From: a bacterium
GTDB lineage: Bacteria; Patescibacteriota; Minisyncoccia; UBA6257; GWB1-50-10
Direction of reading: 5' to 3'
Assembly (NCBI GenBank): GCA_002686365.1
Contig: NZBZ01000015.1
Location: 1-46,891, forward strand
Length of the DNA stretch: 46,891 nucleotides
The position numbers and the translations under genes are program-made. Position 1 is the stretch's first letter. Each line of letters opens with the position of its first letter. Positions 8,932 to 42,905 of the stretch are shown here, piece after piece. The notes beneath the pieces are model-generated. The model worked only from the letters and a program-made list of their open reading frames with translations. It was not told where the DNA came from and made no database searches.

Positions 8932-11900
8932 GTGTTGAATAACTTGAAACAATTTAATCTGCCGGAAGTGGAGGAGAAGGTTTTAAAGCTTTGGAAGGAA
9001 AAGCAGATATTTCAGAAGAGTTTGGATAAGAATCGCAAGAAATTTGTTTTTTATGAGGGTCCTCCTACAGCAAATGGCAGGCCGGGGATACATCATATTC
9101 TTGTTCGGTCTTTTAAAGATATTATTTGCCGTTATAAGACTATGCAGGGATATTCAGTGCCGCGGCGCGCTGGATGGGATACACATGGTCTTCCTGTTGA
9201 GCTTGAGGTTGAAAAGGAATTGGGTCTGAAATCTAAAAAGGAGATAGATGAGTATGGAATTGCAGAGTTTAATGCAAAATGCAGGGAGTCGGTATGGAAG
9301 TATCGGGATGAGTGGGAGAGGATGACAGAGCGGACTGGATTTTGGCTGGATATGAATAATCCCTATGTGACATACGAGAACTCGTATATTGAGTCAGTGT
9401 GGGGGATTTTGAAACAGATTTCACAGAGAGAGCTTTTGTATAAGGGGCATAGGGTTGTGCCGTGGTGTACAAGGTGTGGGACAGCATTGTCTTCTCATGA
9501 GCTTGCGCAGGGGTATAAGGAAGTTACGGATACTTCGGTGTACGTTAAGTTCAAAGTTTCCGCCAAAGGCGGATCCGCCTCGGGCGGAAAAGGCGAAAAG
9601 TTAAAAGTTGGCGATGTTTCGTTGGATGGAGACGTATATATTCTTTCTTGGACCACGACTCCGTGGACTTTGCCTGGTAATGTAGCGCTCGCAGTTGGGG
9701 AGGATATGGTTTATTCAATAACTGAGAAGGATGGTGAGACTCTTATTGCTGCTGAAGATTCTCCATTGGGTGAGGAGTTGGGCCATGCTGGTAAAAAAAT
9801 AAAGGGCAGAGACTTGATTGGGTTGGAGTATGAGCCGCTTTTTCCAGTAAAGGCTCTGCAGAAAAACAAAAAGTCATACAAGGTTTATTCAGCAGATTTT
9901 GTAAATACGGAGGAGGGGACTGGAGTGGTGCATACTGCTGTTATGTATGGAGAGGATGATTATGAGCTGGGCGCGAAGGAGGGACTGCCTAAGCATCATA
10001 CGGTTGATGAGGCGGGGAAGTTTACAAAAGATGTGCATGAGCTTTTGGGAATGTATGCAAAGAGCAAGAAGACAGAGGAGGAGATTATTAATCATTTAGA
10101 TGTTGAGGGGTATCTTTTGAAGACAGAGGAGTATTTACATGACTATCCACACTGTTGGAGGTGCGGGACTGCGCTTTTGTACTACGCACATGACTCATGG
10201 TTTATAAAAATGAGTAAGCTTCGGGAGGAGCTTATCTCCGCAAATAAGGGGATTAATTGGGTTCCAGAGCATTTGAAGGAGGGGCGGTTTGGTGAGTGGC
10301 TTCGCGAAGTAAAGGATTGGGCAATTTCTCGGAATCGGTATTGGGGTACTCCTTTGCCTATGTGGAAATGTAAGAAGTGTGGGAAAGAGAAAATTTTGGA
10401 GTCTAGGGAGGATATTTCAGGCGTTTTAGGCAGCACAAAGAATGAGTATTATCTTATGCGTCATGGGGAGTCAGAGAGTAATGTTTTGGGCGTTGTAAAT
10501 CATAGGTTGGAAACCAGTGATAAGTATCCTCTTACCTTGAAGGGTAGGGTTGTGGCAGAGAAGTCTGCAAAGAGTTTGAAGCGTAAGAAAATTGATGTAG
10601 TTGTTGCTTCGCCATTTCTTCGTACAAAGGAGACAGCGGAAATTCTTGGAGAGATTCTTAATGTGAAACCAGAGGAGGATTCACGTTTACACGAAAGCGG
10701 TCTTGGAGAGCTTGATGGAAAGTCGACTGGTTCGTGTCATGCTGCAGGTCCTGCGGAGCTTCAGAAGCTTTATGCGAGCAAGCCCGACTTTGAGAGTTTT
10801 CAGAGTATTGCAGAGAGGATGTTTTCTGTTGTTCGGGATTTAGAGGAGAAGTATAAGGGTAAGAAGATAGTTATTGTAAGTCATGGAGATCCGCTTTGGA
10901 TGCTTGAGGGAGTAATGCGCGGGATGAGTCTGGATGAGACTATTCGTTGGGGATATTGGGGCTTTGATATGAGTGATGCTTATATTTCTCCGGGAGAGGT
11001 GCGGAAAGTTCCTCTTCTTTCTCTTCCTCGCGGAAAGGATGGTTTTTGTGATTTGCATAGGCCGTATATTGATGATGTTCTCTTTCCTTGTGAGAAGAGC
11101 GGGTGTAAGGGGGAGATGGGGCGAGTGGAGGAGGTAATTGATGTGTGGTTTGATTCTGGAGCAATGCCGTGGGCTCAAGCACATTTTCCTTTTGCAACAC
11201 AAAAGAAAAATGTGAAATATCGAAATATCGATATATCGAGAAGTTTGTTGTATCCGGCAGATTATATTTGTGAGGCCATTGATCAGACAAGGGGATGGTT
11301 TTATACGCTTTTAGCAATTGGAGTTCTTTTGGGAGATGGGGCACCGTACAAGAATGCACTTTCTTTGGGGCATGTGCTTGATAAAAAGGGACAGAAGATG
11401 TCTAAGTCAAAAGGCAATGTTGTTGATTTGTGGGAAATGACAGATAAGTATGGCGCTGATGTTATTCGCTGGTATTTTTATACTGTAAATCCTGCTGGAG
11501 AGCCCAAGCGGTTTGATGAGGAGGATTTGAAAAAGACTTCTAGGCAGTTTTTCAATCTGTTATATAACTCTTTTGTGTTTTATGAGACGTATGCTGATAA
11601 AAGTTTAGAAGTTAAAAGTGAAAAGTTTCCGCCGAAGGCGGATTCGCCTCGGGCGAAAAAAGTTACAAATGTTTTAGATAAGTGGATTTTAGCAAGACTG
11701 GAAGGGGTGAGGGATTCTGTGACTAAAAATATGGATTCGTATGATATTGGGCGGGGGGCTCGCGCGATTGGGGATTTTGTTGAAGATCTTTCTCGGTGGT
11801 ATATTCGCCGGTCGCGGCGGCGATTTCAGAAACCAGAATCGCAGGAAGATTATGAGGCAGCTTCGCAGACTTTGGGGTATGTACTTTTGGAAATTTCAAA

Positions 11901-12510
11901 GTTACTTGCGCCTTTTACGCCGTTTTTTTCAGATGCTCTATATGCTTCGCTTGGTGGTCATGCAGAGTCTGTCCATTTGGAGGATTGGGCGAAGAAGCAG
12001 AAAAAGTTTGCTAATGATAAGCTGGTCAAGGATATGCAGGAGACAAGAGATCGTGTAGTTTCTGCTCTTGCTAAGCGGGCTGATGCTGGAGTTTCAGTAA
12101 GACAGCCTCTTGCTGCATATAGCACAGCTGTTGCCATTCCTTTTGAGGACATATTTAAAGAGGAGGTAAATGTGGAGGAAATTAAAATAGACTCCTCGCT
12201 TCCCAAGGATTCTTTAAATGATGTTCTTGATACTGAAATTACACATGAGCTTCGGGAGCGAGGTTTGCTTCGAGAGCTTGTTCGTGCTGTGCAGGGTTTG
12301 CGGCGGGATGCGGATCTTCATCCTAATGATGAGATTATTTTGGGCATTGATGGAGACGAGGAGATTTTGAGTATTGCAAAGACTTATGATAATGAGTTGA
12401 AAAAGGATGTGGGGGCTAAGCAGATAGAGTATGTGAGGTTTAAGTATGATGCAGAGCTTGAGACTAAGTTTGATGCTTATTCTGTGAGGATTGGATTGAG
12501 AAAAGTGTGA
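8932..12510 (+). CDS. ileS: Isoleucine--tRNA ligase (type 2) with inserted histidine-phosphatase domain
   Basis: EGPPTANGRPGIHH, GWDTHGLPVE, WTTTPWTLPGN, DWAISRNRYWGTP, DQTRGWFY, KMSKS; RHGESESN insert at about 10441-11010. Confidence 0.97.
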   Translation: MLNNLKQFNLPEVEEKVLKLWKEKQIFQKSLDKNRKKFVFYEGPPTANGRPGIHHILVRSFKDIICRYKTMQGYSVPRRAGWDTHGLPVELEVEKELGLKSKKEIDEYGIAEFNAKCRESVWKYRDEWERMTERTGFWLDMNNPYVTYENSYIESVWGILKQISQRELLYKGHRVVPWCTRCGTALSSHELAQGYKEVTDTSVYVKFKVSAKGGSASGGKGEKLKVGDVSLDGDVYILSWTTTPWTLPGNVALAVGEDMVYSITEKDGETLIAAEDSPLGEELGHAGKKIKGRDLIGLEYEPLFPVKALQKNKKSYKVYSADFVNTEEGTGVVHTAVMYGEDDYELGAKEGLPKHHTVDEAGKFTKDVHELLGMYAKSKKTEEEIINHLDVEGYLLKTEEYLHDYPHCWRCGTALLYYAHDSWFIKMSKLREELISANKGINWVPEHLKEGRFGEWLREVKDWAISRNRYWGTPLPMWKCKKCGKEKILESREDISGVLGSTKNEYYLMRHGESESNVLGVVNHRLETSDKYPLTLKGRVVAEKSAKSLKRKKIDVVVASPFLRTKETAEILGEILNVKPEEDSRLHESGLGELDGKSTGSCHAAGPAELQKLYASKPDFESFQSIAERMFSVVRDLEEKYKGKKIVIVSHGDPLWMLEGVMRGMSLDETIRWGYWGFDMSDAYISPGEVRKVPLLSLPRGKDGFCDLHRPYIDDVLFPCEKSGCKGEMGRVEEVIDVWFDSGAMPWAQAHFPFATQKKNVKYRNIDISRSLLYPADYICEAIDQTRGWFYTLLAIGVLLGDGAPYKNALSLGHVLDKKGQKMSKSKGNVVDLWEMTDKYGADVIRWYFYTVNPAGEPKRFDEEDLKKTSRQFFNLLYNSFVFYETYADKSLEVKSEKFPPKADSPRAKKVTNVLDKWILARLEGVRDSVTKNMDSYDIGRGARAIGDFVEDLSRWYIRRSRRRFQKPESQEDYEAASQTLGYVLLEISKLLAPFTPFFSDALYASLGGHAESVHLEDWAKKQKKFANDKLVKDMQETRDRVVSALAKRADAGVSVRQPLAAYSTAVAIPFEDIFKEEVNVEEIKIDSSLPKDSLNDVLDTEITHELRERGLLRELVRAVQGLRRDADLHPNDEIILGIDGDEEILSIAKTYDNELKKDVGAKQIEYVRFKYDAELETKFDAYSVRIGLRKV
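9557..9590. repeat. REP-like palindrome in frame within ileS (VSAKGGSASGGK)
   Basis: tttccgcc-aa-aggcggatccgcct-cg-ggcggaaa, flanked by AAAGT-containing 7-mers. Confidence 0.9.
11214..11240. repeat. 8-mer tandem repeat in frame within ileS (KYRNIDISR)
   Basis: gaaatatc gaaatatc gatatatc gag. Confidence 0.7.
11599..11664. repeat. 7-mer array plus second copy of the REP-like palindrome within ileS (KSLEVKSEKFPPKADSPRAKKV)
   Basis: aaaagtt tagaagt taaaagt gaaaagt then tttccgccgaaggcggattcgcctcgggcgaaaa (11626-11659). Confidence 0.9.
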
Positions 12511-12523
12511 GAGCTCGAAGAGG

Positions 12524-12702
12524 CAGAGAAGAATTTTTCTCCTCGCTCGCAAGTCTCCGCGCATCAAAATTCTTTGCTCGTTCGTACACGTCAATGTGCC
12601 ACCCAGCTCGCTTTGCTCACGGGTGCCCGGCACATTGTCTACTCACTCGCAGAATTTTCCGATACGCTCTAACACGCTCGCTCGAAAAAGAATTCTTCTC
12701 TG
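12524..12702. repeat. 179-nt rod-like hairpin element (divergent copy A)
   Basis: 12-bp terminal inverted repeat CAGAGAAGAATT/AATTCTTCTCTG; nested stems aaaattct/agaatttt, caatgtgcc/ggcacattg. Confidence 0.85.
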
Positions 12703-12723
12703 GGGACAGTTAGCACTTACCGT

Positions 12724-12775
12724 TGGGAGGTGTAGGAGGTCTGTAGGTAGCTTGCTTTGCAAGCTTTTATTTTTA
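12724..12775 (+). repeat. TGGG..GAGGTCTGnnGGTA-hairpin-T run motif (copy 1)
   Basis: tgggaggtgtaggaggtctgtaggt-agcttgc-ttt-gcaagct-tttattttt. Confidence 0.8.
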
Positions 12776-12846
12776 TACTGGCGCGCTCCAGCACGCTCGC
12801 TCACAAAGATTATTTCTCTTTAGAGGAAAAGTAAGTCAGTCTTGGG

Positions 12847-12899
12847 TGGGGTGTATGAGGTCTGAAGGTATCCCCGCCAAGGCGGGGCTTTTATTTTTT
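12847..12899 (+). repeat. TGGG..GAGGTCTGnnGGTA-hairpin-T run motif (copy 2)
   Basis: tggggtgtatgaggtctgaaggtat-ccccgcc-aa-ggcgggg-cttttatttttt. Confidence 0.8.
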
Positions 12900-12925
12900 G
12901 GGGTTGGCAAGGGAGAGCTTGGAGA

Positions 12926-13309
12926 CTATTTACTTTCGTGGCTTATGTTTCCCTCGAGTATGCCTTTGAGGTTTTTTCGAGTTTCTGCTCTTTCTTCTGC
13001 CTGTTGCTTTAGTTTTTCCATGTCTGGTTTTTCGGATGGAGGTTCTTTTAACTCTTCTGCCTCCATTAAGGCTCTTAAGAGATTTTCTAGTTGATCTGTT
13101 GTTTGCGTGTTTCCAATAATTTCTCGGATTGCTTCGAGCGCTTTCGGGTCTGGGTTTTTGTCTTTGGCTGTGTCGCGGAGAAGACGAGTTGTAACTTCAA
13201 GACATCGAGTTAAGGCTTCTGCCTGGCTTCGTTCTTTTTCAGTGAGGCCTTCAGGTGTCGGAGGTTTTTCCCCGTCTGTTGGTACGGCTTTAAAGGGTTG
13301 CTCTAACAT
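12926..13309 (-). CDS. Hypothetical protein, charged and helical
   Basis: ATG ORF 7 nt downstream of the P-loop gene, same strand, protein-like composition. Confidence 0.7.
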   Translation of the reverse strand: MLEQPFKAVPTDGEKPPTPEGLTEKERSQAEALTRCLEVTTRLLRDTAKDKNPDPKALEAIREIIGNTQTTDQLENLLRALMEAEELKEPPSEKPDMEKLKQQAEERAETRKNLKGILEGNISHESK

Positions 13310-13316
13310 AAGTTTA

Positions 13317-13823: not shown

Positions 13824-13850
13824 CCCGTTTAGTATACGGATTTCGCGGAG

Positions 13851-14063
13851 TTACTCCAATTCTTTTGTGATGTGGTGGGTGATGTAAAGGATGATAATCC
13901 CAATGATTGCTGAGGTAATATAGCTTATGAGTTCGTTCGAAGGGAAGAGGTAAAGATCCATAAGTCCCCATATTCCTCTCCAGAATAATATAACTGCTAA
14001 TCCGATTAGTACTGCGTGGAGTACTTGGTGTTTTTTGTCTTTTGGTTGTCGGAATAGGCTCAT
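13851..14063 (-). CDS. Small two-TM membrane protein
   Basis: FWRGIWGLMDLYLFP between two hydrophobic helices; start overlaps trpS stop. Confidence 0.75.
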   Translation of the reverse strand: MSLFRQPKDKKHQVLHAVLIGLAVILFWRGIWGLMDLYLFPSNELISYITSAIIGIIILYITHHITKELE

Positions 14064-15028: not shown

Positions 15029-15029
15029 A

Positions 15030-16886: not shown

Positions 16887-16945
16887 TGAATTCCCGCTAG
16901 GGGCGGGCATTTTATTTTAGTTATTTCGACTTTTAATTTTTTGGG

Positions 16946-17029
16946 TGCCCTCGAGAGGACTCGAACCTCTATGAGATTACTCTCACAGCGTCCTGAACGC
17001 TGCGCGTCTACCAGTTTCGCCACGAGGGC
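16946..17029 (-). tRNA. tRNA-Leu(CAG)
   Basis: GCCCUCG acceptor stem, anticodon arm CAGCG-UUCAGGA-CGCUG, long variable arm, GGUUCGAGUCC; CCA not encoded. Confidence 0.96.
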
Positions 17030-17035
17030 AGTGGC

Positions 17036-18664: not shown

Positions 18665-18669
18665 TCTCT

Positions 18670-20189: not shown

Positions 20190-20320
20190 GTAGTGATTAG
20201 TGATTAATGACTATGATTATGACAGTTTTATTGTACAGGAACTGATAACCGGGGACTAGTAACTGCTCATTTTGTTGGTTTTTTCTTGACTTTTTCAGGT
20301 TTCTGCGATATTCTTTTTTC

Positions 20321-24927: not shown

Positions 24928-24971
24928 CCCTGAGTGGCTCGTCCTGAGCTTTGTCGAAGGAAGTCGAAGGG
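24928..24971. repeat. Nested pair of CCTGAG..GTCGAAGG REP-like units
   Basis: Outer ccctgag...gtcgaaggg encloses inner tcctgagctttgtcgaagga (24942-24961). Confidence 0.8.
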
Positions 24972-25838: not shown

Positions 25839-28364
25839 TTACCACGGTTCTACTATCAAAAGGGTTTTCTTTTTCTTGCCTTGTAAGTCTTGGAGGTGTT
25901 GGAAGATTTCTTCAGTTGCGTACGGCATGAAGGGATGAAGCATCTTTATGCTCTCTGTGAGGATTGTTATAAGAGTTTCGAGTGCTGCAGCTTTGTCTTT
26001 TTTATCTCCATTTTGGAGGCGCGGTTTTGTTTCCTCTATTATTTTATCAGCAAATGTGTGCCAAATGTAGTGGTAGGTGATCTCGGCAGCGCGGTGAAAC
26101 TCGAATTTTTCCAAATGTTTTGTTACTTTCTTTTTTGTTGCTTCTAATTGCTTTAGATTTTTTTTATCTTTTGGTGTGATGACTGGCTTTGTTTTTATTT
26201 CTTCATAGTTCATTGAGATGAATCTTGTGATGTTCCAGATTTTGGTTGCAAAGTTGCGATAGCCGCGTATTTTGTCTTCGGAGATTGTGCTATTTCTGCC
26301 TGGCGTGTTTCCTGCGATTAGTGCCATGCGCACTGCGTCTGTTCCATACTCTTCTGCAACTCCTAGTGGATTAATTACATTTCCTTTTGATTTGGACATT
26401 TTCTGCTTGTCTTTATCTAAAATTAAGCCGTGTAAATATACGTTTTTGAATGGTAGTTTCTTTGTCCTATAAATTCCCATCATTATCATTCGTGCGACCC
26501 AAAAGAAGAGAATATCAGAAGCGGTTTCCATTACGGACGTTGGGTAGAAGTCTTTAAAGTCTTTATCGTGTTTTCCTGAATTTTTGAAGCCTAGTGTGAG
26601 ATATGGCCACTGACCAGAGGAGAACCAGGTATCGAATACGTCGGGATCTTGAGAGAGCTTTTCGCTTTTGCAGCTGGGACATTGTTTTGGTTTCTCAATA
26701 CTAACAATAGGAGGACACGATGAGCTTATAGCTTTTAGCTTCATTAGCTTATTAGCTTTTTTGAAGGTGTAGTGGTAGGCGAAGACGGGGGTTTGCAGTG
26801 TAATGTTTTTATCTGGATTGTGCTTTTTGAAGGCCCTTAAGAGTTCGTCTCTTGTTTTGTACGTTGCGTAATGTGTTTTGTCTTTTAAGTTCATTGTGCC
26901 TACGGTAAGTTTTTCCACCTTCGTGATTGTTCCGTGGCCGAATATCTTTTCTTCCTGACTGTTTTCAAAAGCTACTGCATCTCCTTTTTTGAAGCCGTGG
27001 TCGCGAATTCTCCATGTTGCGATTTTTCCTTTGAATATTTGCGGTACGACGCTTTCGTGGAAACCCATTGTTAGCTTATAGCTTTTAGCTTCATTAGTTT
27101 TTTCGCATATCCATGCTGGAATGCGGATGCCCCAGATAATTTGGCGGGAGATGTTCCAGTCTTCTATGTTTTTCAGCCAGTGGAGTATAACTTTTTTGCG
27201 GTGCGTTGGAATGATTTTTATTTTTCCTTTTTCTATTGTTTCAATCGCTGGTTTTGCTAGCGGCTTCGTCTTTACATACCACTGGGGGAGAGGAATTGGT
27301 TCTAGGGTGCGTTCGCATTTGAAGCAGACAGCGAGGTTGTGTGTGTAGTTTTCGTCAACTTTTACAAGTAGGCCTTTTTTCTTTAAGTCTTCTACAACTT
27401 TTTCACGCGCCTCCATTACTTTCATCCCCGCGTAGCGGCCTGCGTGTTCGTTTAGTTTTCCGTAGCGATCTATTACTTGTTTTACTTCGAGATTGTGTCG
27501 TGTTCCGATTTCGGCATCTAGCGGATCGTGTGCTGGGGTTACTTTAATTACTCCGGTTCCGAATTCTGGATCCACTGCTTTGTCAGCAATTACTTTTATT
27601 TTGAACTTGCCAAGTAGTCCTTGTACCTCAACTTCTTTTCCTATGTATTTTTTGTAACGTTTATCGTTTGGGTGAACAGCTATTGCTGTATCTCCGAATT
27701 TTGTTTCTGGTCGCGCAGTTGCAAGAGTGAATGGTCCGTATTTCATATAGTAGAGTTTTCCTTTTTCCTCTTTTCGTTTTACTTCAAGGCCGGAGAGCGC
27801 TGTTTGATGCTTTACGCACCAGTTTACTGTGCGAAGTCCTCTATATATGAGACCCTCTTTATGCATTTTGATAAATGTGTGTTGTACTTCTTTTATAATG
27901 TCTGGGTCAAGGGTGAACTTCTCTCTGGACCAGTCGCAGGAGGCGCCTAGTTTGCGGAGTTGGTTCTCCATTGTTTTTTTGTTCTCTTGGGTAAATTCAT
28001 ACATTTCCTGCCAGAGTTTTTTGCGATCCATTTTGAATCTGCTTCGCCCTTCTTTCTCAAGTTTTTTATCAAACACAACTTGCGTTTCAAATCCTGCATG
28101 ATCTGCGCCGGGGAGCCAGAGCGTTTTTTGGCCTTTCATTCGAGCAAAGCGAATCATGATATCTTCAAGTGTTACAAAGAGTGCGTGGCCAATATGAAGA
28201 GAGCCATTCGCGTTTGGGGGAGGCATTATGATACAAAAGCTTTTAGCTTTTAGCTTCGTTAGCTTTTTAGTTTTCGGAAGGTTGTCGGGGTTGAAAAAGC
28301 CGGACTTTTCCCACAGGGAGTATATTTTTTCTTCTACTTTGTCTGGAATGTATCTTTTGTCCAT
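25839..28364 (-). CDS. valS: Valine--tRNA ligase with inserted ASCH-like domain, no C-terminal coiled coil
   Basis: MPPPNANGSLHIGH, PGADHAG, GTGVIKVTPAHD, DWNISRQIIWG, DTWFSSGQWP, KMSKS. Confidence 0.97.
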   Translation of the reverse strand: MDKRYIPDKVEEKIYSLWEKSGFFNPDNLPKTKKLTKLKAKSFCIIMPPPNANGSLHIGHALFVTLEDIMIRFARMKGQKTLWLPGADHAGFETQVVFDKKLEKEGRSRFKMDRKKLWQEMYEFTQENKKTMENQLRKLGASCDWSREKFTLDPDIIKEVQHTFIKMHKEGLIYRGLRTVNWCVKHQTALSGLEVKRKEEKGKLYYMKYGPFTLATARPETKFGDTAIAVHPNDKRYKKYIGKEVEVQGLLGKFKIKVIADKAVDPEFGTGVIKVTPAHDPLDAEIGTRHNLEVKQVIDRYGKLNEHAGRYAGMKVMEAREKVVEDLKKKGLLVKVDENYTHNLAVCFKCERTLEPIPLPQWYVKTKPLAKPAIETIEKGKIKIIPTHRKKVILHWLKNIEDWNISRQIIWGIRIPAWICEKTNEAKSYKLTMGFHESVVPQIFKGKIATWRIRDHGFKKGDAVAFENSQEEKIFGHGTITKVEKLTVGTMNLKDKTHYATYKTRDELLRAFKKHNPDKNITLQTPVFAYHYTFKKANKLMKLKAISSSCPPIVSIEKPKQCPSCKSEKLSQDPDVFDTWFSSGQWPYLTLGFKNSGKHDKDFKDFYPTSVMETASDILFFWVARMIMMGIYRTKKLPFKNVYLHGLILDKDKQKMSKSKGNVINPLGVAEEYGTDAVRMALIAGNTPGRNSTISEDKIRGYRNFATKIWNITRFISMNYEEIKTKPVITPKDKKNLKQLEATKKKVTKHLEKFEFHRAAEITYHYIWHTFADKIIEETKPRLQNGDKKDKAAALETLITILTESIKMLHPFMPYATEEIFQHLQDLQGKKKKTLLIVEPW
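26723..27097. repeat. 25-bp direct repeat AGCTTATAGCTTTTAGCTTCATTAG flanking the ValRS insert
   Basis: Identical copies at 26723-26747 and 27073-27097; third related array at about 28237-28274. Confidence 0.95.
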
Positions 28365-28446: not shown

Positions 28447-29496
28447 TTATATGCTTAGGCTTCCTTTTGCTTTTAGTGCGTATTTCTTTTTTCGGAGATG
28501 GGTTATGTATCCTGCGACAGCAATCATTGCAGCATTGTCGCCTTGGAATTTTTTATTTGCAGATAGAAAATTTAGCTTATAGCTTTTAGCTTGTAGCTTC
28601 ATTAGCTTTTGGAGATTGGAGTTTGCAGCTACGCCGCCTGATAGGATTATTGATTTTGCGTTGTGTTCTTGTGCAGCACGCATGGTTTTTGTAATGAGTA
28701 CGTCTATTGCTGCCTGCTGAAAGCTTGCTGCGACGTTAGCTTTTAGCTTATAGCTTTTAGCTTCGTTAGCTTTTAAGTAGTAGAGTACAGAGGTTTTTAA
28801 TCCGGAGAAGGAGAAGTCATAGTTTTTGTCGCGTATCATTGGGCGAGGGAAGTCAATTGCATCTGGATTTCCTTTTTTTGCCAGCGTTTCTATTTCTGGT
28901 CCACCAGGATAGGGGAGCTTTAGCATTCTAGCTACTTTATCAAATGCCTCGCCTGCTGCGTCGTCTCTTGTTTCTCCGAGCTTTTTATAGTCAGTGAGAG
29001 ATTTCATGAGTATAAGGATTGTGTGGCCACCTGATACCAGCAGTTGCACTGCTGGATAGCTTATAGCTTTTAGCTTATAGCTTTTGGGCAAAAGGAAGCT
29101 GTACATGTGTCCGTGCAAGTGATTTGTTCCAATTATTTTTGTGGTTCGACTTCGCTCACTATAAATTTTTGGAAAGTGTTTCTTTTTTATTTCTTTTGCA
29201 AAGTTTACGCCTGTCCAGAGTGCAGGCTCTAGTCCGGGGCCGACGGTGACGGCTATTGCGTTAGCTTTTAGCTTATAGCTTTTAGCTTCTAGCTTTTTAA
29301 ATAGAAGCGGTAGGTTTTTTTCATGTTCGCGTTTGGCGAGGTTGGGGACTACTCCGCCCCAAGCACGGTGAATTTCAATTTGAGAGGCAATAAAATGTTT
29401 TTTAATGTTGAATTTTGGTGCTTTTAAGCCTCCTTTTGCCTCAATGAGTGCAAGGGAGGTTTCGTCACAGGATGTTTCAATGGCTAATATGTTCAT
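28447..29496 (-). CDS. tsaD: tRNA threonylcarbamoyltransferase TsaD with five short repeat-derived segments
   Basis: ILAIETSCDET, GGVVPNLAKREH, VTVGPGL, NHLHGH, VSGGHT, DDAAGEAFDKVAR, FSFSGLKT, GGVAAN, DNAAMIA. Confidence 0.97.
   Translation of the reverse strand: MNILAIETSCDETSLALIEAKGGLKAPKFNIKKHFIASQIEIHRAWGGVVPNLAKREHEKNLPLLFKKLEAKSYKLKANAIAVTVGPGLEPALWTGVNFAKEIKKKHFPKIYSERSRTTKIIGTNHLHGHMYSFLLPKSYKLKAISYPAVQLLVSGGHTILILMKSLTDYKKLGETRDDAAGEAFDKVARMLKLPYPGGPEIETLAKKGNPDAIDFPRPMIRDKNYDFSFSGLKTSVLYYLKANEAKSYKLKANVAASFQQAAIDVLITKTMRAAQEHNAKSIILSGGVAANSNLQKLMKLQAKSYKLNFLSANKKFQGDNAAMIAVAGYITHLRKKKYALKAKGSLSI
28572..29298. repeat. Four TAGCTTW 7-mer arrays and one REP-like unit inside tsaD
   Basis: Arrays at 28572-28610, 28736-28774, 29057-29085, 29261-29298; ggttcgacttcgctcactataaa at 29143-29165. 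Confidence 0.92.
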
Positions 29497-36011: not shown

Positions 36012-36020
36012 AAAGCTTAT

Positions 36021-37292: not shown

Positions 37293-37306
37293 TGTGATGT
37301 AAAAAA

Positions 37307-38317: not shown

Positions 38318-38328
38318 TTTTAGTATGT

Positions 38329-39159
38329 ATGCCTTATATTGACGCACACACGCATGTAAATTTTGCTGCGTTTTCAAAGGATTACAAAGAAGTTATTGAT
38401 CGTGCCTTGAAGCACGATGTTTTTTTAGTGAATGTTGGTACACAGCAGGATACGTCGAAGAGAGCAGTAGAGATTGCGGACGAGTATAAAGAGGGAGTGT
38501 ATGCTGTGGTGGGAATGCATCCAATTCATTCAGACTCGTCACATCATGATGCAGAGGAGCTGGGGGGAGACATTGGTTTTACCTCGCGAGGCGAAGAGTT
38601 TGATAAGGATTTTTATTTAGAATTTGCAAAGCATGATAAGGTAGTGGCAATTGGGGAGTGCGGGCTTGATTATTTTAGAATCAAGGGCGATGAACAGAAG
38701 GAGAGGCAGAAAAAAGTTTTTGTAGAGCATATTAAGTTGGCAAAAGAGGCGGGCAAGCCCTTAATGATTCACTGTAGAGAAGCATTTTCTGATCTGCTTG
38801 ATATTTTGGAGAGTCATAGGGGTATATTGAATAATCCTTCGGGTATTGCTCATTTTTTCTCTGGCACAAAGGAAGACGCAAAGAAGTTATTGGACTTGGG
38901 ATTTTATTTCACGTTTGGCGGAGTTATTACGTTTGTGCGCGATTATGATGAGGTTGTTCAGATGATTCCTGCAGATAGAATTTTGTCAGAGACTGATGCT
39001 CCGTATGTGTCTCCAGAGCCGTATCGAAAGGATAGGAACGAGCCAGTGTATGTTATAGAGGTTGTAAAAAAACTTGCAGAGATTCGAGGTGTTTCCGAGG
39101 AGGAGATGAAGGAGCAGATTTGGAATAATGCGAAGACTGTTTTTGGGATTGATAATTAG
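38329..39159 (+). CDS. tatD: TatD-family hydrolase
   Basis: IDAHTH, GMHP, AIGECGLDY, MIHCREA, SETDAPY, RNEP. Confidence 0.95.
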   Translation: MPYIDAHTHVNFAAFSKDYKEVIDRALKHDVFLVNVGTQQDTSKRAVEIADEYKEGVYAVVGMHPIHSDSSHHDAEELGGDIGFTSRGEEFDKDFYLEFAKHDKVVAIGECGLDYFRIKGDEQKERQKKVFVEHIKLAKEAGKPLMIHCREAFSDLLDILESHRGILNNPSGIAHFFSGTKEDAKKLLDLGFYFTFGGVITFVRDYDEVVQMIPADRILSETDAPYVSPEPYRKDRNEPVYVIEVVKKLAEIRGVSEEEMKEQIWNNAKTVFGIDN

Positions 39160-39177
39160 TGTGATATGCTTATTTAT

Positions 39178-39897
39178 ATGAATCAGAAGGGTTCTGTGAA
39201 TATTTTGGTAATTGTTATTGCCCTTGCGGTGGTTGGGGTTCTTGGGTATTTGGTTTTGACGAGAGAGGGTGAGGTTGTGGAGCAGGATTTGCAAGTTGTA
39301 GCTGATGAGACGGCGAATTGGAATGTGTATCATGGTGAGGAGCATGGTTTTGAGTTCCGTCACCCCGCTGTTTTTGAGGGGAACGTTGTAAGTGTGAAAT
39401 CAAGTTCCCAAGAGGATTCGACGGGGACAAGATGGTTTACTTTAATGGAGTCGCGTGTTTGGTCGGAGAAGGGCAGTGGTAGTTATATTACTGTTCCTGA
39501 AATACAACTTACTGTGCAACGATTATCGGATGCTTATTTATTTTATGGCGTTGACCTAGGGGGTCAGGGCGGTTATGAATATGACCCAGAAGAGAGTGTA
39601 TGGCGCGCTCGTGACAGTTGGGTCAAGCCCTCAGTGCGTACGTGGGAAGAGATGTTTCAGCTTTTTCTAGATCACGGAAGACGTGAAGTGAAGACAGCCT
39701 CGGGGCAGTCGGCTTTTTCTTACAGGTCTTGCGCTTATGAGAGTTGTTCGTCTGGATATACAATTTATGATTTTCAAAAAAGCCTTGTTTTCGGTTTTAT
39801 GTTTTCTTATGTTCCCCAAGATGGATTATCTGAGATGGGAGAGTATGACAAGAAGCTGCTGACTTTTTTGGAGAAGATCGTTCAGACTGTGCGTTAG
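39178..39897 (+). CDS. Membrane-anchored exported protein with prepilin-like leader
   Basis: MNQKG-SVNILVIVIAL leader; ETANWNVY...GFEFRHP motif (PsbP-like). Confidence 0.7.
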   Translation: MNQKGSVNILVIVIALAVVGVLGYLVLTREGEVVEQDLQVVADETANWNVYHGEEHGFEFRHPAVFEGNVVSVKSSSQEDSTGTRWFTLMESRVWSEKGSGSYITVPEIQLTVQRLSDAYLFYGVDLGGQGGYEYDPEESVWRARDSWVKPSVRTWEEMFQLFLDHGRREVKTASGQSAFSYRSCAYESCSSGYTIYDFQKSLVFGFMFSYVPQDGLSEMGEYDKKLLTFLEKIVQTVR

Positions 39898-40028
39898 GTT
39901 CTGTTGGAGGATTGGATTTTGGATTGGAGCCATAAGCAATTTCGGGATTTTAAAATACGGATAGACCACGTCTTGACTGTATTTTTTGTTGAGAAAATGG
40001 AGGTTTGGAGGTAGAATCAGAAATATTG

Positions 40029-42905
40029 ATGAAGTACGACTTTTCTAAAATTGAGAAGAAGTGGCAGAAGGCATGGAAAGAGGAGGGTGTTTATGAGCCC
40101 TTCGACTTCGCTCAGGGTAAACCTTCTCGGAAGAGGCGAGGAAAGCCTTTTTATAATCTGATGATGTTTCCATATCCGTCTGCAGAGGGGCTGCATGTAG
40201 GGAATATGTATGCTTTTACAGGTTCGGATATTTATGGGCGGTTTCAGCGTATGCAGGGATTGGATGTATTCCAGCCAATTGGTTTGGATGGGTTTGGTAT
40301 TCATTCGGAAAATTACGCGATTAAGAAAAAGACTCATCCAGCGAAACAGGCAAAGGTTTCAGAGAAGAATTTCTACAAACAGCTTGAGGCAGTTGGAAAT
40401 GGATTTGCATGGAAAGAGAAACTTGAGACTTATGATCCGGAATATTACAAGTGGACGCAAAGAATTGTAGCGCAGTTGTTTGACGCTGGTTTAGTTGAGC
40501 GGAAGAAGGCGCCAGTTAATTGGTGTTCTTCTTGTAAGACTGTGCTTGCGGATGAGCAGGTAATTGATAATCATTGCGAGCGATGCAGTACACAGATCGA
40601 GCGCAAGGAGCTTGAACAGTGGTTTTTTAAGATTACAAAGTATGCAGACAAGCTTTTGAATAACTTGGAAAAGATTGATTGGTCAGAGAGGGTGAAGATT
40701 GCGCAGAAGAATTGGATAGGCAGGTCAGAGGGAGCTTTGATAAAATTTTCAATTTCTAATTCTCAATTTTCAATTAAGGTGTTTACAACGAGGCCGGATA
40801 CGCTATATGGTGCGACGTATATGGTTTTGGCGCCGGAGCATGAGCTGGTTGGTAAGCTAAAGGATTCTATTAAGAATTGGAAAGAGGTTCAGAAGTATGT
40901 AAAGAAGGCAGGTACTAAGACAGAGCAGGATAGGATTGCAGAGGGTAAGTTAAAGACAGGCATTGAACTTAAGGGCGTGAAAGCGGTAAATCCTGCTAAT
41001 AGTGAGGAGGTTTCTGTTTGGATTGCAGATTATGCTTTGTCTTCGTACGGGACTGGGGCAATTATGGCAGTGCCTGCGCATGATGCGCGTGATTTTGAGT
41101 TTGCGAAGAAGTTTGATTTGCCGATTCGCTATGTTATTGCGCCTTTCTTTGGAAAGCCGCGTGCTAAAGCGGAGTTTCGTAAGACAATTTCTGCAATAGT
41201 GCGAAGGAAGCAGGATGGGAAGGTTCTTCTTTTGAAATGGAAGAAGCTTGACTGGATTGCACCGCCAGTTGGAGGCATTGATAAGGGGGAGTCAGCAGAA
41301 GAAGCTGCAGAACGAGAGGTGTTAGAAGAGACGGGATATCGCGCAAAGGCAGTTCGTTTGCTTGGAGGGCCGGTTGAGTCTCACTTTTTTGCAGAAAATA
41401 AGAATGTGTGGCGTCATCGTTTGGATCAGGCTGTACTTTTAGAGGCTGGCAGTGATAAGCGTACAGAAGTTTCAAAGGAGGAGCTTGAACGGCATGAGTC
41501 TGTGTGGCTTTCGCCTAAAGAGGCGCTTCAGAAAATAACTCATGAGGAGAATAAGGTTGCGTTTCAGTATCTTTTGAGCGGAAGTGAGGTGTTTATTGGC
41601 TCTGGAAAGATGGTGAATTCTGGAAAGTTTGACGGCATGGAGTCGGGCAAGGCGAAAAAGGAGATAACTAGTTTTGTGAAAGGAAAAATGCAGATACAGT
41701 ATAAGCTTCGGGATTGGCTTATTTCTCGGCAGAGGTACTGGGGTCCGCCAATTCCTTTAGTTTTTTGTGAAAAGTGCGCCCATAAAGGAAAAACAAAAGG
41801 TGAGAAAATGAATCCGGGATGGATGTCTGTGTCTCTAGAAGATTTACCAGTGAAGCTTCCTGCGCTTGAGGATTTTCAACCAAAAGGCCCTTCGACAAGC
41901 TCAGGACAAGTGAGGGGGCCGCTTGATAAGGTGGAGAAGTTTTGGAAAACAAAGTGTCCGAAATGCAATGGAGAGGCAAGGAGAGAGACAGATGTGTCAG
42001 ATACGTTTCTGGATTCTGCGTGGTATTACATTGGGTATTTGAATCTGAAGGAGCCATTTGACAAAGCTGGAGTTAAGAAGTGGCTGCCAGTGGATATGTA
42101 TATTGGCGGAGCAGAGCATTCTGTACTTCATCTTTTGTATTCGCGATTTTTAGCAATGGCTTTGAAAGATTTAGGCCTTCTTCATTATGATGAGCCGTTT
42201 GCTAAGTTTCGGGCGCACGGACTTTTGATTAAGGAGGGCGCGAAGATGTCAAAGTCCAAGGGCAATGTAGTAAATCCTGATGAGTATATTGATAAGTTCG
42301 GGGCAGATGCTTTGCGTATGTATTTGATGTTTCTTGCTCCATTTGAGCAAGGCGGAGATTTTCGAGATCAGGGAATTTTGGGCATTACGAGGTTTCTTGA
42401 AAGGGTGTGGAGGTTTTATAATTCGGATTGCGTAGATGGTAAGGATGCTGGTCAGGTTTTGCATCAGACTGTGAAGAAGGTTACGGATGATGTTCAGGGG
42501 TTGCAGTATAATACGGCAATATCACAGCTTATGATTTGTCTCAATGCGTTTGAGGAGAAGGGCTCAGTGTCAAAAAATAATTTAGAAGTATTTTTGAAAC
42601 TACTTGCGTTGTTTGCTCCGCATGTAACAGAGGAGTTGTGGCGAGAAGTGCTTGGAAATAAAAAATCTATTCATTTGTCAGAATGGCCTAAATTTGATTC
42701 GAAGAAGATTGAGGAAGATGTATTTCAGTTGGTGGTGCAAATAAATGGAAAGACGCGGGCTGCTATGGAAACAAAGAAGGGGATTACGCAGGCTAGTGCA
42801 AAGAAGGTTGCTTTGGGAGACGAGCGCGTTTTAAAGTATCTTGACGGCAAAAAAATAAAAAAGACGATCTTTGTGAAGGATCGACTGATTAACTTTGTGG
42901 TGTAG
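40029..42905 (+). CDS. leuS: Leucine--tRNA ligase with inserted NUDIX domain
   Basis: MFPYPSAEGLHVGN, FTTRPDT, GTGAIMAVPAHD, DWLISRQRYWG, GGAEHSVLHLLY, KMSKS; NUDIX box at about 41271-41339. Confidence 0.97.
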   Translation: MKYDFSKIEKKWQKAWKEEGVYEPFDFAQGKPSRKRRGKPFYNLMMFPYPSAEGLHVGNMYAFTGSDIYGRFQRMQGLDVFQPIGLDGFGIHSENYAIKKKTHPAKQAKVSEKNFYKQLEAVGNGFAWKEKLETYDPEYYKWTQRIVAQLFDAGLVERKKAPVNWCSSCKTVLADEQVIDNHCERCSTQIERKELEQWFFKITKYADKLLNNLEKIDWSERVKIAQKNWIGRSEGALIKFSISNSQFSIKVFTTRPDTLYGATYMVLAPEHELVGKLKDSIKNWKEVQKYVKKAGTKTEQDRIAEGKLKTGIELKGVKAVNPANSEEVSVWIADYALSSYGTGAIMAVPAHDARDFEFAKKFDLPIRYVIAPFFGKPRAKAEFRKTISAIVRRKQDGKVLLLKWKKLDWIAPPVGGIDKGESAEEAAEREVLEETGYRAKAVRLLGGPVESHFFAENKNVWRHRLDQAVLLEAGSDKRTEVSKEELERHESVWLSPKEALQKITHEENKVAFQYLLSGSEVFIGSGKMVNSGKFDGMESGKAKKEITSFVKGKMQIQYKLRDWLISRQRYWGPPIPLVFCEKCAHKGKTKGEKMNPGWMSVSLEDLPVKLPALEDFQPKGPSTSSGQVRGPLDKVEKFWKTKCPKCNGEARRETDVSDTFLDSAWYYIGYLNLKEPFDKAGVKKWLPVDMYIGGAEHSVLHLLYSRFLAMALKDLGLLHYDEPFAKFRAHGLLIKEGAKMSKSKGNVVNPDEYIDKFGADALRMYLMFLAPFEQGGDFRDQGILGITRFLERVWRFYNSDCVDGKDAGQVLHQTVKKVTDDVQGLQYNTAISQLMICLNAFEEKGSVSKNNLEVFLKLLALFAPHVTEELWREVLGNKKSIHLSEWPKFDSKKIEEDVFQLVVQINGKTRAAMETKKGITQASAKKVALGDERVLKYLDGKKIKKTIFVKDRLINFVV
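40098..40121. repeat. REP-like unit in frame within leuS (PFDFAQGK)
   Basis: cccttcgacttcgctcagggtaaa; reverse complement matches the 24928-24971 family. Confidence 0.85.
40744..40775. repeat. AATTTTC-type 7-mer array in frame within leuS (FSISNSQFSI)
   Basis: aattttc aatttct aattctc aattttc aatt. Confidence 0.85.
41888..41910. repeat. REP-like unit in frame within leuS (PSTSSGQ)
   Basis: cccttcgacaagctcaggacaag. Confidence 0.85.

What the first reader, a model, noticed from the sequence alone, without database searches (positions are those of the whole stretch)
9557..41910. Several short DNA repeat families sit in frame inside essential translation genes
Seen: at least 14 sites in ileS, valS, tsaD and leuS where a short peptide between conserved motifs is spelled by a DNA repeat. 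The families are TAGCTTW 7-mers (3 arrays in valS, 4 in tsaD), an AATTTTC 7-mer array (leuS), a GAAATATC 8-mer array (ileS), a CCGCC..AGGCGGATYCGCCT..GGCG palindrome with AAAAGT 7-mers (2 in ileS) and TTCGAC..GCTCA units (2 in leuS, 1 in tsaD). The same DNA is read in different frames or strands at different sites, so what is shared is nucleotide sequence, not peptide. All four genes stay open. I saw no such inserts in argS, trpS, glyQS, pnp or rnj. Established: Rickettsia palindromic elements are a precedent for in-frame palindrome insertion. Inference: an active process writes or copies short repeats into tolerant loops of a specific subset of genes. The responsible enzyme is not in this window.
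Basis: partly seen in the sequence, partly recalled or inferred. Interest (0 to 1): 0.9.

Follow-up and report, generated by a model that had tools for sequence, protein, structure and literature searches.

The report
Seven-base repeats written into essential genes
In this tiny-genome bacterium and its kin, short runs of 7-base DNA repeats and two other small repeat elements sit in frame inside essential enzymes, showing that a DNA-level repeat process, not protein-level selection, spells parts of conserved proteins.

Summary
All 14 sites exist as described, and all four genes stay open. The main family, AAGCTAW heptamers, is genome-wide: 41 arrays, 19 inside genes that include UvrC, TIM, TrmD and RNase HII. 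It is therefore not specific to translation genes.

Period 7 is the signal. G000 has 25 strong period-7 segments, against 0 in codon shuffles. In 445 kb from relatives there are 53 at period 7 and none at the other periods 4-11 and 13. In 100 kb of E. coli there are none.

At the same positions of TsaD, ValS, LeuS and IleS, other genera carry different heptamers. These segments often have exactly the length of repeat-free orthologs, so many arrays overwrite a segment rather than insert into it. The ileS palindrome and the TTCGAC..GCTCAGG unit are true insertions of 6-12 aa.

A 26-nt composite shared by 14 loci, and the clustering of arrays, show copying within the genome. The same 26-mer also occurs in 12 other genomes, CPR by record title where named, which is unexplained.

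Best reading: 7-nt-register slippage or misalignment in a lineage where MutS was not found, followed by ectopic copying and filtered by selection. The enzyme is unknown. I found no report of this for CPR. It is a new variant of the known heptanucleotide repeats.

The parts
8932..12510 (+). ileS (isoleucyl-tRNA synthetase, with a His_Phos_1 domain inserted at aa 507-672)
   Evidence: Pfam. Open frame.
9558..9589 (+). 32-nt palindrome TTCCGCC-AAAG-GCGGATCCGCC-TCGG-GCGGAA, in frame (SAKGGSASGGK), flanked by AAAGTT/AAAAGTT heptamers
   Evidence: one of 7 loci of this element genome-wide. DNA fold -14.2 kcal/mol, z -4.1; the segment is 26 aa here against 7-18 aa in the 20 orthologs, a true insertion.
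11214..11239 (+). GAAATATC 8-mer array, 3.2 copies, in frame (VKYRNIDISRS)
   Evidence: TRF; a site that varies strongly in length (4-30 aa in orthologs).
11627..11657 (+). Second copy of the palindrome, read in another phase (PPKADSPRAK), inside an AAAAGTT array (11599-11664)
   Evidence: 26 aa against 12-20 in orthologs; fold -12.1 kcal/mol, z -2.8.
25839..28364 (-). valS (valyl-tRNA synthetase)
   Evidence: Pfam. Open frame.
28238..28265 (-). AAGCTAW array (KKLTKLKAKSF)
   Evidence: The closest relatives (about 80% identical ValS) carry AATCCTW heptamers at the same site.
27073..27091 (-). AAGCTAW array (NEAKSYKL), forming the N-side linker of an extra 102-aa domain
26763..27068 (-). Extra beta-barrel-like domain inside ValS (aa 433-534), absent from the 23 family orthologs aligned
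   Evidence: weak PF12195 match; one other genome of 120 in the order (G028) has the domain at the same ValS position, with non-repeat linkers.
26723..26758 (-). AAGCTAW array with the composite GCTAATGAAGCTAAAAGCTATAAGCT (KKANKLMKLKAISS), forming the C-side linker of the extra domain
28447..29496 (-). tsaD (t6A synthase subunit)
   Evidence: Pfam. Open frame. AlphaFold2 model with mean pLDDT 93.
29263..29295 (-). AAGCTAW array, site 1 (KKLEAKSYKLKAN). It starts on the conserved Lys-Leu codons AAG CTA.
   Evidence: same length as E. coli and most orthologs; end of helix 51-72 plus a loop.
29145..29158 (+). TTCGAC-TTC-GCTCA unit, antisense to tsaD (read as SERSRT), adding 8-10 aa against orthologs
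   Evidence: a loop, with pLDDT 66 for residues 111-120.
29058..29083 (-). AAGCTAW array, site 2 (PKSYKLKAISY)
   Evidence: 8 of 30 orthologs carry a heptamer array at this site, with 8 different units.
28738..28772 (-). AAGCTAW array, site 3 (LKANEAKSYKLKAN), 3 aa longer than in most orthologs
28574..28608 (-). AAGCTAW array, site 4 (KLMKLQAKSYKLN), with no length change. It lies in a confidently predicted helix (293-305).
   Evidence: Relatives L002 and L003 also have AAGCTAW here; L006, L007 and L013 have other heptamers.
40005..42905 (+). leuS (leucyl-tRNA synthetase, with a NUDIX domain inserted at aa 392-516)
   Evidence: Pfam. Open frame.
40101..40114 (+). TTCGAC-TTC-GCTCA unit (core CCCTTCGACTTCGCTCAGGG, read as PFDFAQG), adding about 8 aa
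40744..40775 (+). AATTYTC heptamer array (KFSISNSQFSIK), the same length as repeat-free orthologs
   Evidence: Other genera have AATTCTC, AATTCAG, GATCAAG or AAGTTKA at this site.
41891..41903 (+). TTCGAC-AA-GCTCA unit read in another phase (GPSTSSGQ), adding about 6 aa
3633..3667 (.). Intergenic heptamer array of another family (TTAGGAT/ATAGGAC)
20191..20219 (.). Intergenic heptamer array (TAGTGAT)
24945..24958 (-). Intergenic copy of the TTCGAC..GCTCAGG unit

Best explanation
Three layers are at work.

1. A DNA-level process with a strict 7-nt register turns weakly constrained DNA into imperfect heptamer tandem arrays. It acts across this bacterial lineage, in surface segments of proteins and in intergenic spacers alike. 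I take it to be replication slippage and, above all, transient 7-nt misalignment, in which the growing strand copies from a template shifted by one unit and then realigns. That would rewrite a segment without changing its length. It would go unchecked where MutS was not found.

2. Arrays of the same unit then exchange or copy sequence between loci, preferentially nearby. This gives genome-specific families, AAGCTAW in this genome.

3. Purifying selection keeps, inside genes, only arrays that hold the frame, lack stop codons and lie in tolerant surface helices and loops. Each such array is translated as a 7-residue-periodic peptide.

Two other small dispersed elements are separate insertions that land in the same tolerant places. 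One is a 32-nt GGATCC-centred palindrome, found mostly inside heptamer arrays. The other is the unit CCTTCGAC-N2-4-GCTCAGG.

Shown: the arrays, their period, their recurrence at homologous sites, the length data, the copying and the selective filter. Inferred: the misalignment mechanism and the role of the missing mismatch repair.
For: The period is specific.
- G000 has 25 lag-7 segments, against 0 in 5 codon shuffles. Period 8 gives 11, period 9 gives 8, and periods 4, 5, 10 and 11 give 0.
- 98 loci of relatives (445,352 nt) hold 53 period-7 segments, 46 of them distinct. Period 14 gives 11, periods 12 and 15 give 1 each, and every other period from 4 to 13 gives 0. Shuffles give at most 1.
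- 29 tsaD loci from other classes of the phylum hold 10 segments in 6 loci, all at period 7.
- 100 kb of E. coli holds 0.

The same sites recur with different units. In 98 ortholog sequences of 4 proteins there are 56 period-7 segments at 22 alignment sites. Twelve sites are hit in 2 or more genomes, mostly with different units. One TsaD site has 8 genomes and 8 units; one LeuS site has 7 genomes and 5 units.

Many arrays overwrite rather than insert. At four sites, 12 of 16 arrays have exactly the median length of repeat-free orthologs. TsaD sites 1 and 4 equal E. coli TsaD in length.

Arrays are seeded from the flanks. They begin on conserved flanking codons: Lys-Leu AAG CTA in TsaD, Lys-Phe and Ile-Lys in LeuS.

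The process is generic. There are 41 AAGCTAW arrays: 18 sense in genes, 1 antisense, 16 intergenic and 6 across gene ends. The host genes are diverse housekeeping genes.

Selection filters the outcome. 18 of 19 coding arrays have an open sense frame, against 63% expected from random unit order. For non-coding arrays it is 10 of 22, against 56% expected.

Sequence is copied between loci. GCTAATGAAGCTAWAAGCTAWAAGCT stands at 14 loci. There are 11 neighbouring array pairs within 1.5 kb, against a mean of 2.6 and a maximum of 9 in 2000 random placements.

Repair genes: MutS was found in 0 of 41 genomes of the order, with the control positive in 11 of 14 known genomes. MutL was not found in G000.

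The arrays are not assembly artefacts. Contigs of four independent public runs reproduce them letter for letter.

Literature: heptanucleotides are reported as the commonest long simple-sequence repeats in most prokaryotic genomes, with a proposal that 7 nt is the stretch held by the polymerase (passages in PMC4679880 and PMC4692102).
Against: - The exact 26-nt composite also occurs in 24 stretches of 12 other genomes whose record titles span several CPR candidate phyla, and in 8 of 401 genomes sampled across the phylum. A fast, local slippage process does not predict this.
- Nothing tested here explains why the register is 7 and never 6 or 8.
- A one-unit slip would break the frame of an essential gene, so simple slippage alone cannot build the arrays in genes.
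- No length variants appeared in the reads. However, depth was only 2-6x and contigs hide rare variants.
- RecA, needed for classical gene conversion, was not found in G000, although 38 of 41 genomes of the order have it.
- No enzyme was identified.
- Gene positions rest on my own crude ORF calls, not on a gene finder.
Confidence: 0.5

Rival explanations
1. The repeats are very small non-autonomous mobile modules of about 30 nt (9+7+7+7), together with the palindrome and the TTCGAC unit. An unidentified enzyme pastes them in trans into tolerant DNA and they spread horizontally among CPR bacteria. Heptamer periodicity would then be a property of the modules or of their target sites.
For: - The same 26-nt composite, with an irregular 9-nt first unit, stands at 14 loci of G000.
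- The commonest unit-length patterns are (7,7,7,5), 9 times, and (9,7,7,5), 8 times.
- The identical composite occurs in 12 other genomes (CPR by record title where named; two titles name no taxon), at 1-4 copies each, and in 8 of 401 phylum genomes with 0 control hits.
- CCTTCGAC-N2-4-GCTCAGG occurs in 46 of 151 genomes across the phylum with 0 control hits.
- The palindrome and the TTCGAC units are real insertions of 6-12 aa.
- The palindrome sits inside heptamer arrays at 6 of its 7 loci.
Against: - Most heptamer arrays in relatives have units private to one genome and one site.
- Many arrays do not change segment length, and they start on conserved flanking codons. A pasted module would not do this.
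- No conserved flanks or target duplications are visible around the 41 arrays.
- No Y1 transposase or reverse transcriptase was found.
- Five AAGCTAW-rich genomes of the same order lack the composite.
Confidence: 0.27
2. The AAGCTAW module is a functional signal that accumulates by positive selection or molecular drive. Candidates are a DNA-uptake sequence of competent CPR cells, a binding site for a nucleoid or RNA-binding protein, or an unstructured leader that replaces a Shine-Dalgarno site.
For: - One exact sequence is shared by distant CPR lineages.
- About 10 of the 22 arrays outside genes end 4-22 nt before an ATG in array orientation, as reported for TAACTGA repeats in Beggiatoaceae (PMC4679880, passages).
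- The 16S rRNA 3' end of G000 lacks CCTCC, and there is little Shine-Dalgarno enrichment.
- The array does not fold (z 0.03).
Against: - The unit differs from genus to genus at the same sites, so no sequence-specific function is conserved.
- The density, 41 arrays in 888 kb, is far below that of known uptake sequences (about 1 per kb, recalled).
- Orientation shows no clear link to GC skew: 23 against 18.
- Arrays outside genes lie in both orientations relative to neighbouring genes.
Confidence: 0.12
3. Chance, low-complexity Lys-rich coding, or an assembly artefact.
For: The arrays are A-rich and encode Lys/Ala/Ser/Leu-rich peptides, which are common in such proteomes.
Against: - Codon-shuffled controls give 0 segments against 25 observed.
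- Only period 7, which is not a multiple of 3, is enriched.
- Independent assemblies and the contigs of public runs reproduce the arrays.
Confidence: 0.02

Closest known systems
Heptanucleotide long simple-sequence repeats of prokaryotes (Mrazek et al. 2007, known to me only through passages in PMC4679880 and PMC4692102; STRR repeats of Calothrix/Nostoc; GGGAATC repeats of Xanthomonas)
   Same: Tandem 7-nt units. Seven is the favoured unit length. Units are lineage-specific and patchily distributed. They vary in length and sequence between close relatives. Polymerase slippage has been proposed as the cause.
   Different: Those repeats are described as mainly intergenic, and repeats inside genes are said to favour units divisible by three. 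Here about half of the arrays lie inside conserved housekeeping genes, in frame. They recur at homologous positions across genera with different units, and often replace a native segment without changing its length.
TAACTGA direct repeats of marine Beggiatoaceae (PMC4679880, passages read)
   Same: Heptamer arrays of 2-6 units. One orientation has stops in all frames and the other gives a 7-residue peptide repeat. Many copies lie just upstream of start codons without a Shine-Dalgarno site. A few lie within ORFs. The same unit appears in unrelated phyla.
   Different: There, ORF copies lie mostly at protein ends, and a regulatory role is proposed for one fixed unit. Here many units coexist, and the copies sit in internal helices and loops of essential enzymes.
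Rickettsia palindromic elements (recalled; not read here)
   Same: Repeated DNA inserted in frame into conserved genes at tolerant surface positions, and read in different frames.
   Different: RPEs are about 100-150 nt long palindromic elements. Here the arrays are 20-40 nt and not palindromic (z 0.03). Only the 32-nt ileS element is a palindrome.
Small dispersed repeats (SDR) of Nostoc (Elhai et al. 2008; the paper is not held. Its link to heptamer repeats is my recollection; PMC4390886 only confirms precise insertion of SDR5 into HIP1)
   Same: Hairpin-forming dispersed repeats well under 100 nt with no enzyme of their own. As I recall, they are embedded within tandem heptamer repeats. That matches the 32-nt palindrome, which sits inside heptamer arrays at 6 of its 7 loci.
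   Different: A different phylum and different sequences. Here the copies are also in frame inside genes. Membership cannot be tested.
Tandem repeats of Borg elements (PMC9879509; only the search listing and the start of the abstract were seen)
   Same: Rapidly evolving tandem repeats that create new peptide segments in proteins.
   Different: As I recall, Borg repeat units inside ORFs are divisible by three. Here the unit is 7 nt, and the hosts are bacterial chromosomes.
REP/REPIN elements with RAYT transposases (PMC3116915, passages read)
   Same: Short, dispersed, palindromic repeats copied within a genome.
   Different: REPINs are extragenic and are linked to a RAYT gene. No Y1 transposase was found here, and the elements are intragenic.

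Membership tests
Heptanucleotide long simple-sequence repeats (LSSR) | Head-to-tail copies of a 7-nt unit, longer or more frequent than chance | tested here: met
   85 TRF arrays against 12-21 in shuffles; 25 lag-7 segments against 0.
Heptanucleotide long simple-sequence repeats (LSSR) | Mainly intergenic; repeats within genes favour units divisible by 3 (as summarised in PMC4679880) | tested here: not met
   of 67 arrays of period 7, 14 or 21 (score 40 or more), 32 lie inside 26 genes, 13 lie across gene ends and 22 are intergenic.
Rickettsia palindromic elements | Palindromic element of about 100-150 nt (recalled) | tested here: not met
   Arrays are 19-55 nt and do not fold (z 0.03). The TTCGAC units do not fold either (z -0.7 to +0.4). 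The ileS palindrome folds (z -4.1, -2.8) but is only 32 nt.
Rickettsia palindromic elements | In-frame insertion into conserved genes, adding residues against orthologs | tested here: met
   Met for the palindrome (+10-12 aa) and the TTCGAC units (+6-10 aa). Not met for 12 of 16 heptamer arrays at four sites.
REP/REPIN with RAYT | A Y1 (RAYT) transposase gene in the genome | tested here: not met
   PF01797 was not found in G000 (91.5% complete). The control was positive in 6 of 14 genomes.
REP/REPIN with RAYT | Extragenic location | tested here: not met
   5 of the 7 palindrome loci and 13 of the 17 TTCGAC loci lie inside ORFs.
Small dispersed repeats (Nostoc SDR) | Dispersed hairpin-forming repeat well under 100 nt, embedded in heptamer tandem repeats (recalled) | tested here: met
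   a 32-nt palindrome at 7 loci, 3 inside AAGCTAW arrays and 3 inside AAAAGTT arrays. Sequence relatedness to the cyanobacterial SDRs could not be tested because the paper is not held.
DNA uptake sequences | One fixed motif at roughly one copy per kb, in both orientations (recalled) | tested here: not met
   There are 41 arrays in 888 kb. Most kin lack the motif: 48 of 201 genomes of the order have at least one dimer.
Phase-variable contingency loci | Long perfect repeat tracts in or before surface or virulence genes, with on/off frameshifts | tested here: not met
   Arrays have 3-7 imperfect units with 8- and 9-nt variants and lie in essential housekeeping genes. No length variants were seen in the contigs (weak test).
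Diversity-generating retroelement or other RT-templated writing | A reverse transcriptase gene | tested here: not met
   PF00078 was not found in G000.

The most novel reading that the evidence does not exclude
CPR/Patescibacteria may possess a dedicated or idiosyncratic DNA-synthesis activity, such as a replicative or repair polymerase, a primase-like enzyme, or an enzyme with an internal template. Such an activity would rewrite unconstrained DNA in a strict 7-nt register. Heptamer-spelled peptides would then continually replace surface segments of essential proteins. A 30-nt frame-compatible AAGCTAW module and the CCTTCGAC..GCTCAGG unit would move horizontally among distant CPR lineages. This would be a previously unrecognised route by which DNA-level repeat dynamics, rather than point mutation, generate protein sequence in a major bacterial radiation.
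Probability: 0.2. Interest if true: 0.9.

Novelty: new variant of a known kind. Interest (0 to 1): 0.78.

Why it matters
If the reading holds, parts of universally conserved enzymes in a major bacterial radiation are spelled by a mutational process with a fixed 7-nt register, not by selection on residues. The enzymes concerned include aminoacyl-tRNA synthetases, TsaD, UvrC and TIM.

- **An old puzzle becomes testable.** Why heptanucleotide repeats dominate bacterial long repeats has been open since 2007. Hundreds of independent arrays sit at alignable positions, with repeat-free orthologs as the "before" state. Overwriting, expansion and copying can therefore be told apart.
- **Practical consequences.** Alignments, trees and structure predictions of CPR proteins contain segments that look alike through DNA repeats, not through common descent.
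- **An unexplained cross-lineage signal.** Exact short modules are shared between distant CPR lineages. This hints at an unknown transfer or writing mechanism.

Tried and rejected
**Enzyme leads.** No Y1/RAYT transposase, reverse transcriptase or Y-family polymerase was found in G000. The genome is 91.5% complete, so this does not show absence.

**RecA.** Not found in G000 but present in 38 of 41 genomes of the order. This is probably an assembly gap.

**Reads.** One search listed 5 holders, none on record as RNA. Contigs of 4 runs reproduce the arrays exactly and show no length variants. Depth is 2-6x and contigs drop rare variants, so this says nothing about slippage rates. Loose ends at the array borders are other loci that carry the same array.

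**Closer strains.** The metagenome scan with TsaD gave nothing above 64% identity, so no strain-level comparison was possible.

**Did the arrays mediate the ValS domain insertion?** Rejected. G028 has the same domain at the same ValS position with non-repeat linkers, so the arrays replaced the linkers. The 32 short "stand-alone" homologs of that domain lie mostly on very short contigs and may be fragments.

**Are intergenic arrays copies of frame-compatible modules?** Rejected. 10 of 22 have an open frame, against 56% expected.

**An earlier slip of mine.** I first thought that alternating A/T units keep all stops in one frame. That was wrong in general. It holds for the 9+7+7 composite only.

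**Link between array orientation and replication.** None was clear: 23 against 18.

**Other checks.** Supplementary files were not consulted.

**Literature.** No paper held in the library joins a heptamer-repeat term with Patescibacteria or Parcubacteria, or with Candidate Phyla Radiation. Nothing was found for heptanucleotide repeats read as heptapeptides apart from PMC4679880. Nothing was found for the peptide strings encoded by the TTCGAC unit.


Full report
**What is there.** The window is contig C15 of an 888-kb, 21-contig genome. Pfam confirms ileS, valS, tsaD and leuS, and argS, rnj, a trpS/tyrS-type gene, pnp and a glyQS-type gene. They fall into three kinds:
- Heptamer tandem arrays: AAGCTAW in valS (3) and tsaD (4), AATTYTC in leuS, AAAAGTT around the ileS palindromes, plus one 8-mer array in ileS.
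- A 32-nt palindrome centred on GGATCC, twice in ileS.
- The unit TTCGAC-N2-3-GCTCA, twice in leuS and once antisense in tsaD.

**More than chance.**
- TRF finds 85 period-7 arrays in the genome, against 14, 12 and 21 in three shuffles. Period 14 gives 24 against 3-6, and period 21 gives 12 against 0-4.
- A stricter scan asks for 20 of 24 positions equal at lag p. It gives 25 segments at p = 7 (12 coding, 7 non-coding, 6 across gene ends), against 0 in each of five codon-preserving shuffles. It gives 11 at p = 8, 8 at p = 9, and none at 4, 5, 10 or 11.
- The two commonest 12-mers of the genome are AAGCTATAAGCT and AAGCTAAAAGCT, with 48 copies each.

**Not a special subset of genes.** There are 41 AAGCTAW arrays of 3 or more units: 18 in genes in sense, 1 antisense, 16 intergenic and 6 across 3' gene ends (gene positions are my own crude ORF calls).
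- The other host genes are UvrC (2 arrays), a class-V aminotransferase (2), a Mur ligase, TrmD, RNase HII, triosephosphate isomerase, a pilin-like protein and one unnamed ORF. KsgA holds the one antisense array, next to a copy of the palindrome; YebC holds a palindrome copy only.
- Of 67 arrays of period 7, 14 or 21 with TRF score 40 or more, 32 lie in 26 genes, 13 lie across gene ends and 22 are intergenic. The genome is about 87% coding.
- The antisense strand of the array carries TAG in all frames.
- 18 of 19 coding arrays have an open sense frame, against 63% expected for random unit order. Non-coding arrays show no such excess: 10 of 22, against 56%. Selection therefore filters the arrays in genes, which also argues that they are translated.

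**Orthologs.** I aligned TsaD (30 sequences), ValS (24), LeuS (23) and IleS (21) from kin of other genera.
- The G000 arrays lie at the most variable positions. Other genera carry other heptamers there: AACCTAM, ATTCTAG, AACTAAM, AATTCCA, AAATCCT, ATTTTCA, AATTTCG, AATCCTW, AATTCTC, AATTCAG, GATCAAG, AAGTTKA and more.
- Counted together there are 56 period-7 segments at 22 alignment sites. Twelve sites are hit in 2 or more genomes. One TsaD site has 8 genomes and 8 units.
- Length is the surprise. At four sites, 12 of 16 arrays have exactly the median length of repeat-free orthologs. These sites are TsaD site 4, two LeuS sites and one IleS site.
- TsaD sites 1 and 4 also match E. coli TsaD in length.
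- At other sites the arrays are longer: 15 against 4, 13 against 2, 11 against 2, 13 against 4 and 17 against 5 residues. Arrays therefore both overwrite and expand.
- Several arrays begin on conserved flanking codons: Lys-Leu AAG CTA in TsaD site 1, and Lys-Phe or Ile-Lys in LeuS. This points to local templating.
- An AlphaFold2 model of TsaD (mean pLDDT 93) places the array-coded residues at helix ends and loops, with block pLDDT of 77-85. Site 4 lies within a confident helix, pLDDT 97-98.

**Breadth.**
- In 98 loci of kin (445 kb) there are 53 period-7 segments, 46 of them distinct, and 11 at period 14. Periods 12 and 15 give 1 each, and every other period from 4 to 13 gives 0.
- tsaD loci of other classes of the phylum give 10 segments in 6 of 29 loci, again only at period 7.
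- 100 kb of E. coli K-12 gives none.
- The AAGCTAW dimer occurs 73 times in G000. It occurs at least once in 48 of 201 genomes of the order, patchily: only 2 of 11 kin in the same family, and up to 22 copies elsewhere. The reversed control pattern gives single hits in 10 genomes.

**Copying.**
- The composite GCTAATGAAGCTAWAAGCTAWAAGCT has an irregular 9-nt unit and stands at 14 loci of G000: 4 in genes, 2 across gene ends and 8 intergenic.
- The arrays are clustered. There are 11 neighbouring pairs within 1.5 kb, against a mean of 2.6 and a maximum of 9 in 2000 random placements.
- This cannot come from independent slippage at each locus.
- Unexpectedly, the same 26-mer occurs in 24 stretches of 12 other genomes among 185,579 species. 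Where the record titles name a taxon, all are CPR: Moraniibacteriota, Saccharibacteria, Peribacter, Paceibacteria, Sungiibacteriota.
- Its 20-nt core occurs in 8 of 401 genomes sampled across the phylum, with no control hits.
- It is absent from five AAGCTAW-rich genomes of the same order. I cannot explain this.

**The other two families.**
- The palindrome has 7 loci. Three lie inside AAGCTAW arrays, three inside AAAAGTT arrays and one in YebC. It folds well, z -4.1 and -2.8, and adds 10-12 residues in IleS.
- The TTCGAC..GCTCA unit has 17 loci by the loose pattern, 13 of them in ORFs. It does not fold and adds 6-10 residues.
- Its stricter core, CCTTCGAC-N2-4-GCTCAGG, occurs in 46 of 151 genomes across the phylum with no control hits, at up to 22 copies.

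**Mechanism.**
- MutS was found in 0 of 41 genomes of the order. MutL and Y-family polymerases were not found in G000.
- RecA is present in 38 of 41 genomes of the order but was not found in G000.
- No RAYT transposase or reverse transcriptase was found.
- The evidence to be explained is the exclusive 7-nt register, overwriting that keeps length, seeding from the flanks, private units at shared sites and the selective filter.
- These fit best a replication or repair error with a 7-nt register, that is, slippage plus transient misalignment, unchecked by mismatch repair and followed by ectopic copying between arrays.
- This extends the polymerase-footprint idea cited for heptanucleotide repeats (passages in PMC4679880 and PMC4692102).
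- The mechanism is an inference. The cross-lineage module is the main fact against it and keeps a mobile-module reading alive.

**Comparison with what is known.** Heptanucleotide repeats are known as the commonest long simple repeats of prokaryotes, mostly intergenic. Examples are Xanthomonas and Nostoc (PMC4692102), TAACTGA in Beggiatoaceae with a few ORF-end copies (PMC4679880), and STRR. In-frame repeat insertion is known from Rickettsia palindromic elements (recalled). Hairpin repeats within heptamer arrays are known from Nostoc SDRs (recalled; the paper is not held). I found no report of heptamer arrays inside essential genes of CPR bacteria.

**Limits.** No gene finder was available. There are no genomes of the same genus. 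The reads are shallow.

Noticed in passing
window 1-46891 (whole contig); also contigs C4, C16, C10, C8: GC skew is very strong and uniform, about +0.23 over the whole window whatever the gene strand. AT skew is negative. Other contigs reach +0.27 or -0.22.
   Followed up: no
G000:C4:65901-67390 (L146:2930-2990): The 3' end of the 16S rRNA reads ...GTGGATTAATTCGTTTC and lacks the CCTCC anti-Shine-Dalgarno sequence. Upstream regions of ORFs show little GGAGG enrichment (1.8-fold) and are rich in TATAA/TAATT.
   Followed up: partly
window 10450-10947 (ileS aa 507-672); window 41178-41552 (leuS aa 392-516); window 26763-27068 (valS aa 433-534): Whole domains are inserted in three synthetases. IleS has a histidine phosphatase, shared by the family. 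LeuS has a NUDIX domain, shared with only 2 of 23 kin at full length. ValS has a small beta-barrel-like domain, seen in only one other genome (G028) of 120 in the order.
   Followed up: partly
G000:C1:104740/104825, C18:78662/78748, C19:17670/17756, C20:35603/35688 and others: ATCCCTCACATAAC occurs 24 times, mostly as inverted pairs about 85 nt apart. This looks like a MITE-like element of about 100 nt.
   Followed up: no
G000:C1:47783, C4:11892, C4:126455, C4:179450, C18:74259, C20:3996, C20:18079: The 26-nt perfect palindrome GTATCAGTGTACTAGTACACTGATAC stands at about 9 loci.
   Followed up: no
G000:C4:196940-197520 and C21:12-600: 63-nt tandem repeats stand at two contig ends. They probably belong to one repeat-rich gene that broke the assembly.
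   Followed up: no
G000:C13:22021-24291: A second LeuS-like gene, 46-47% identical to the window's LeuS, lies on another contig. It is either a paralogue or contamination (the genome is rated 4.8% contaminated).
   Followed up: no
window 8757-8797: A perfect 21-nt tandem duplication (CAGCCTGTGAAGAATTCTAGA, 2 copies) lies inside ORF 8135-8818(-).
   Followed up: no
window 5543-5877 and 16942-17030: A tmRNA (tag ANKTAAPAYAYA) and a tRNA-Leu(CAG).
   Followed up: no
L159:2426-2451 and L178:4393-4418: In two other CPR genomes the ATG inside the AAGCTAW composite is in frame with a TatD-like ORF (MKLKAKSY-LFDTHAH). The repeat may therefore supply the start codon and the N-terminus.
   Followed up: no
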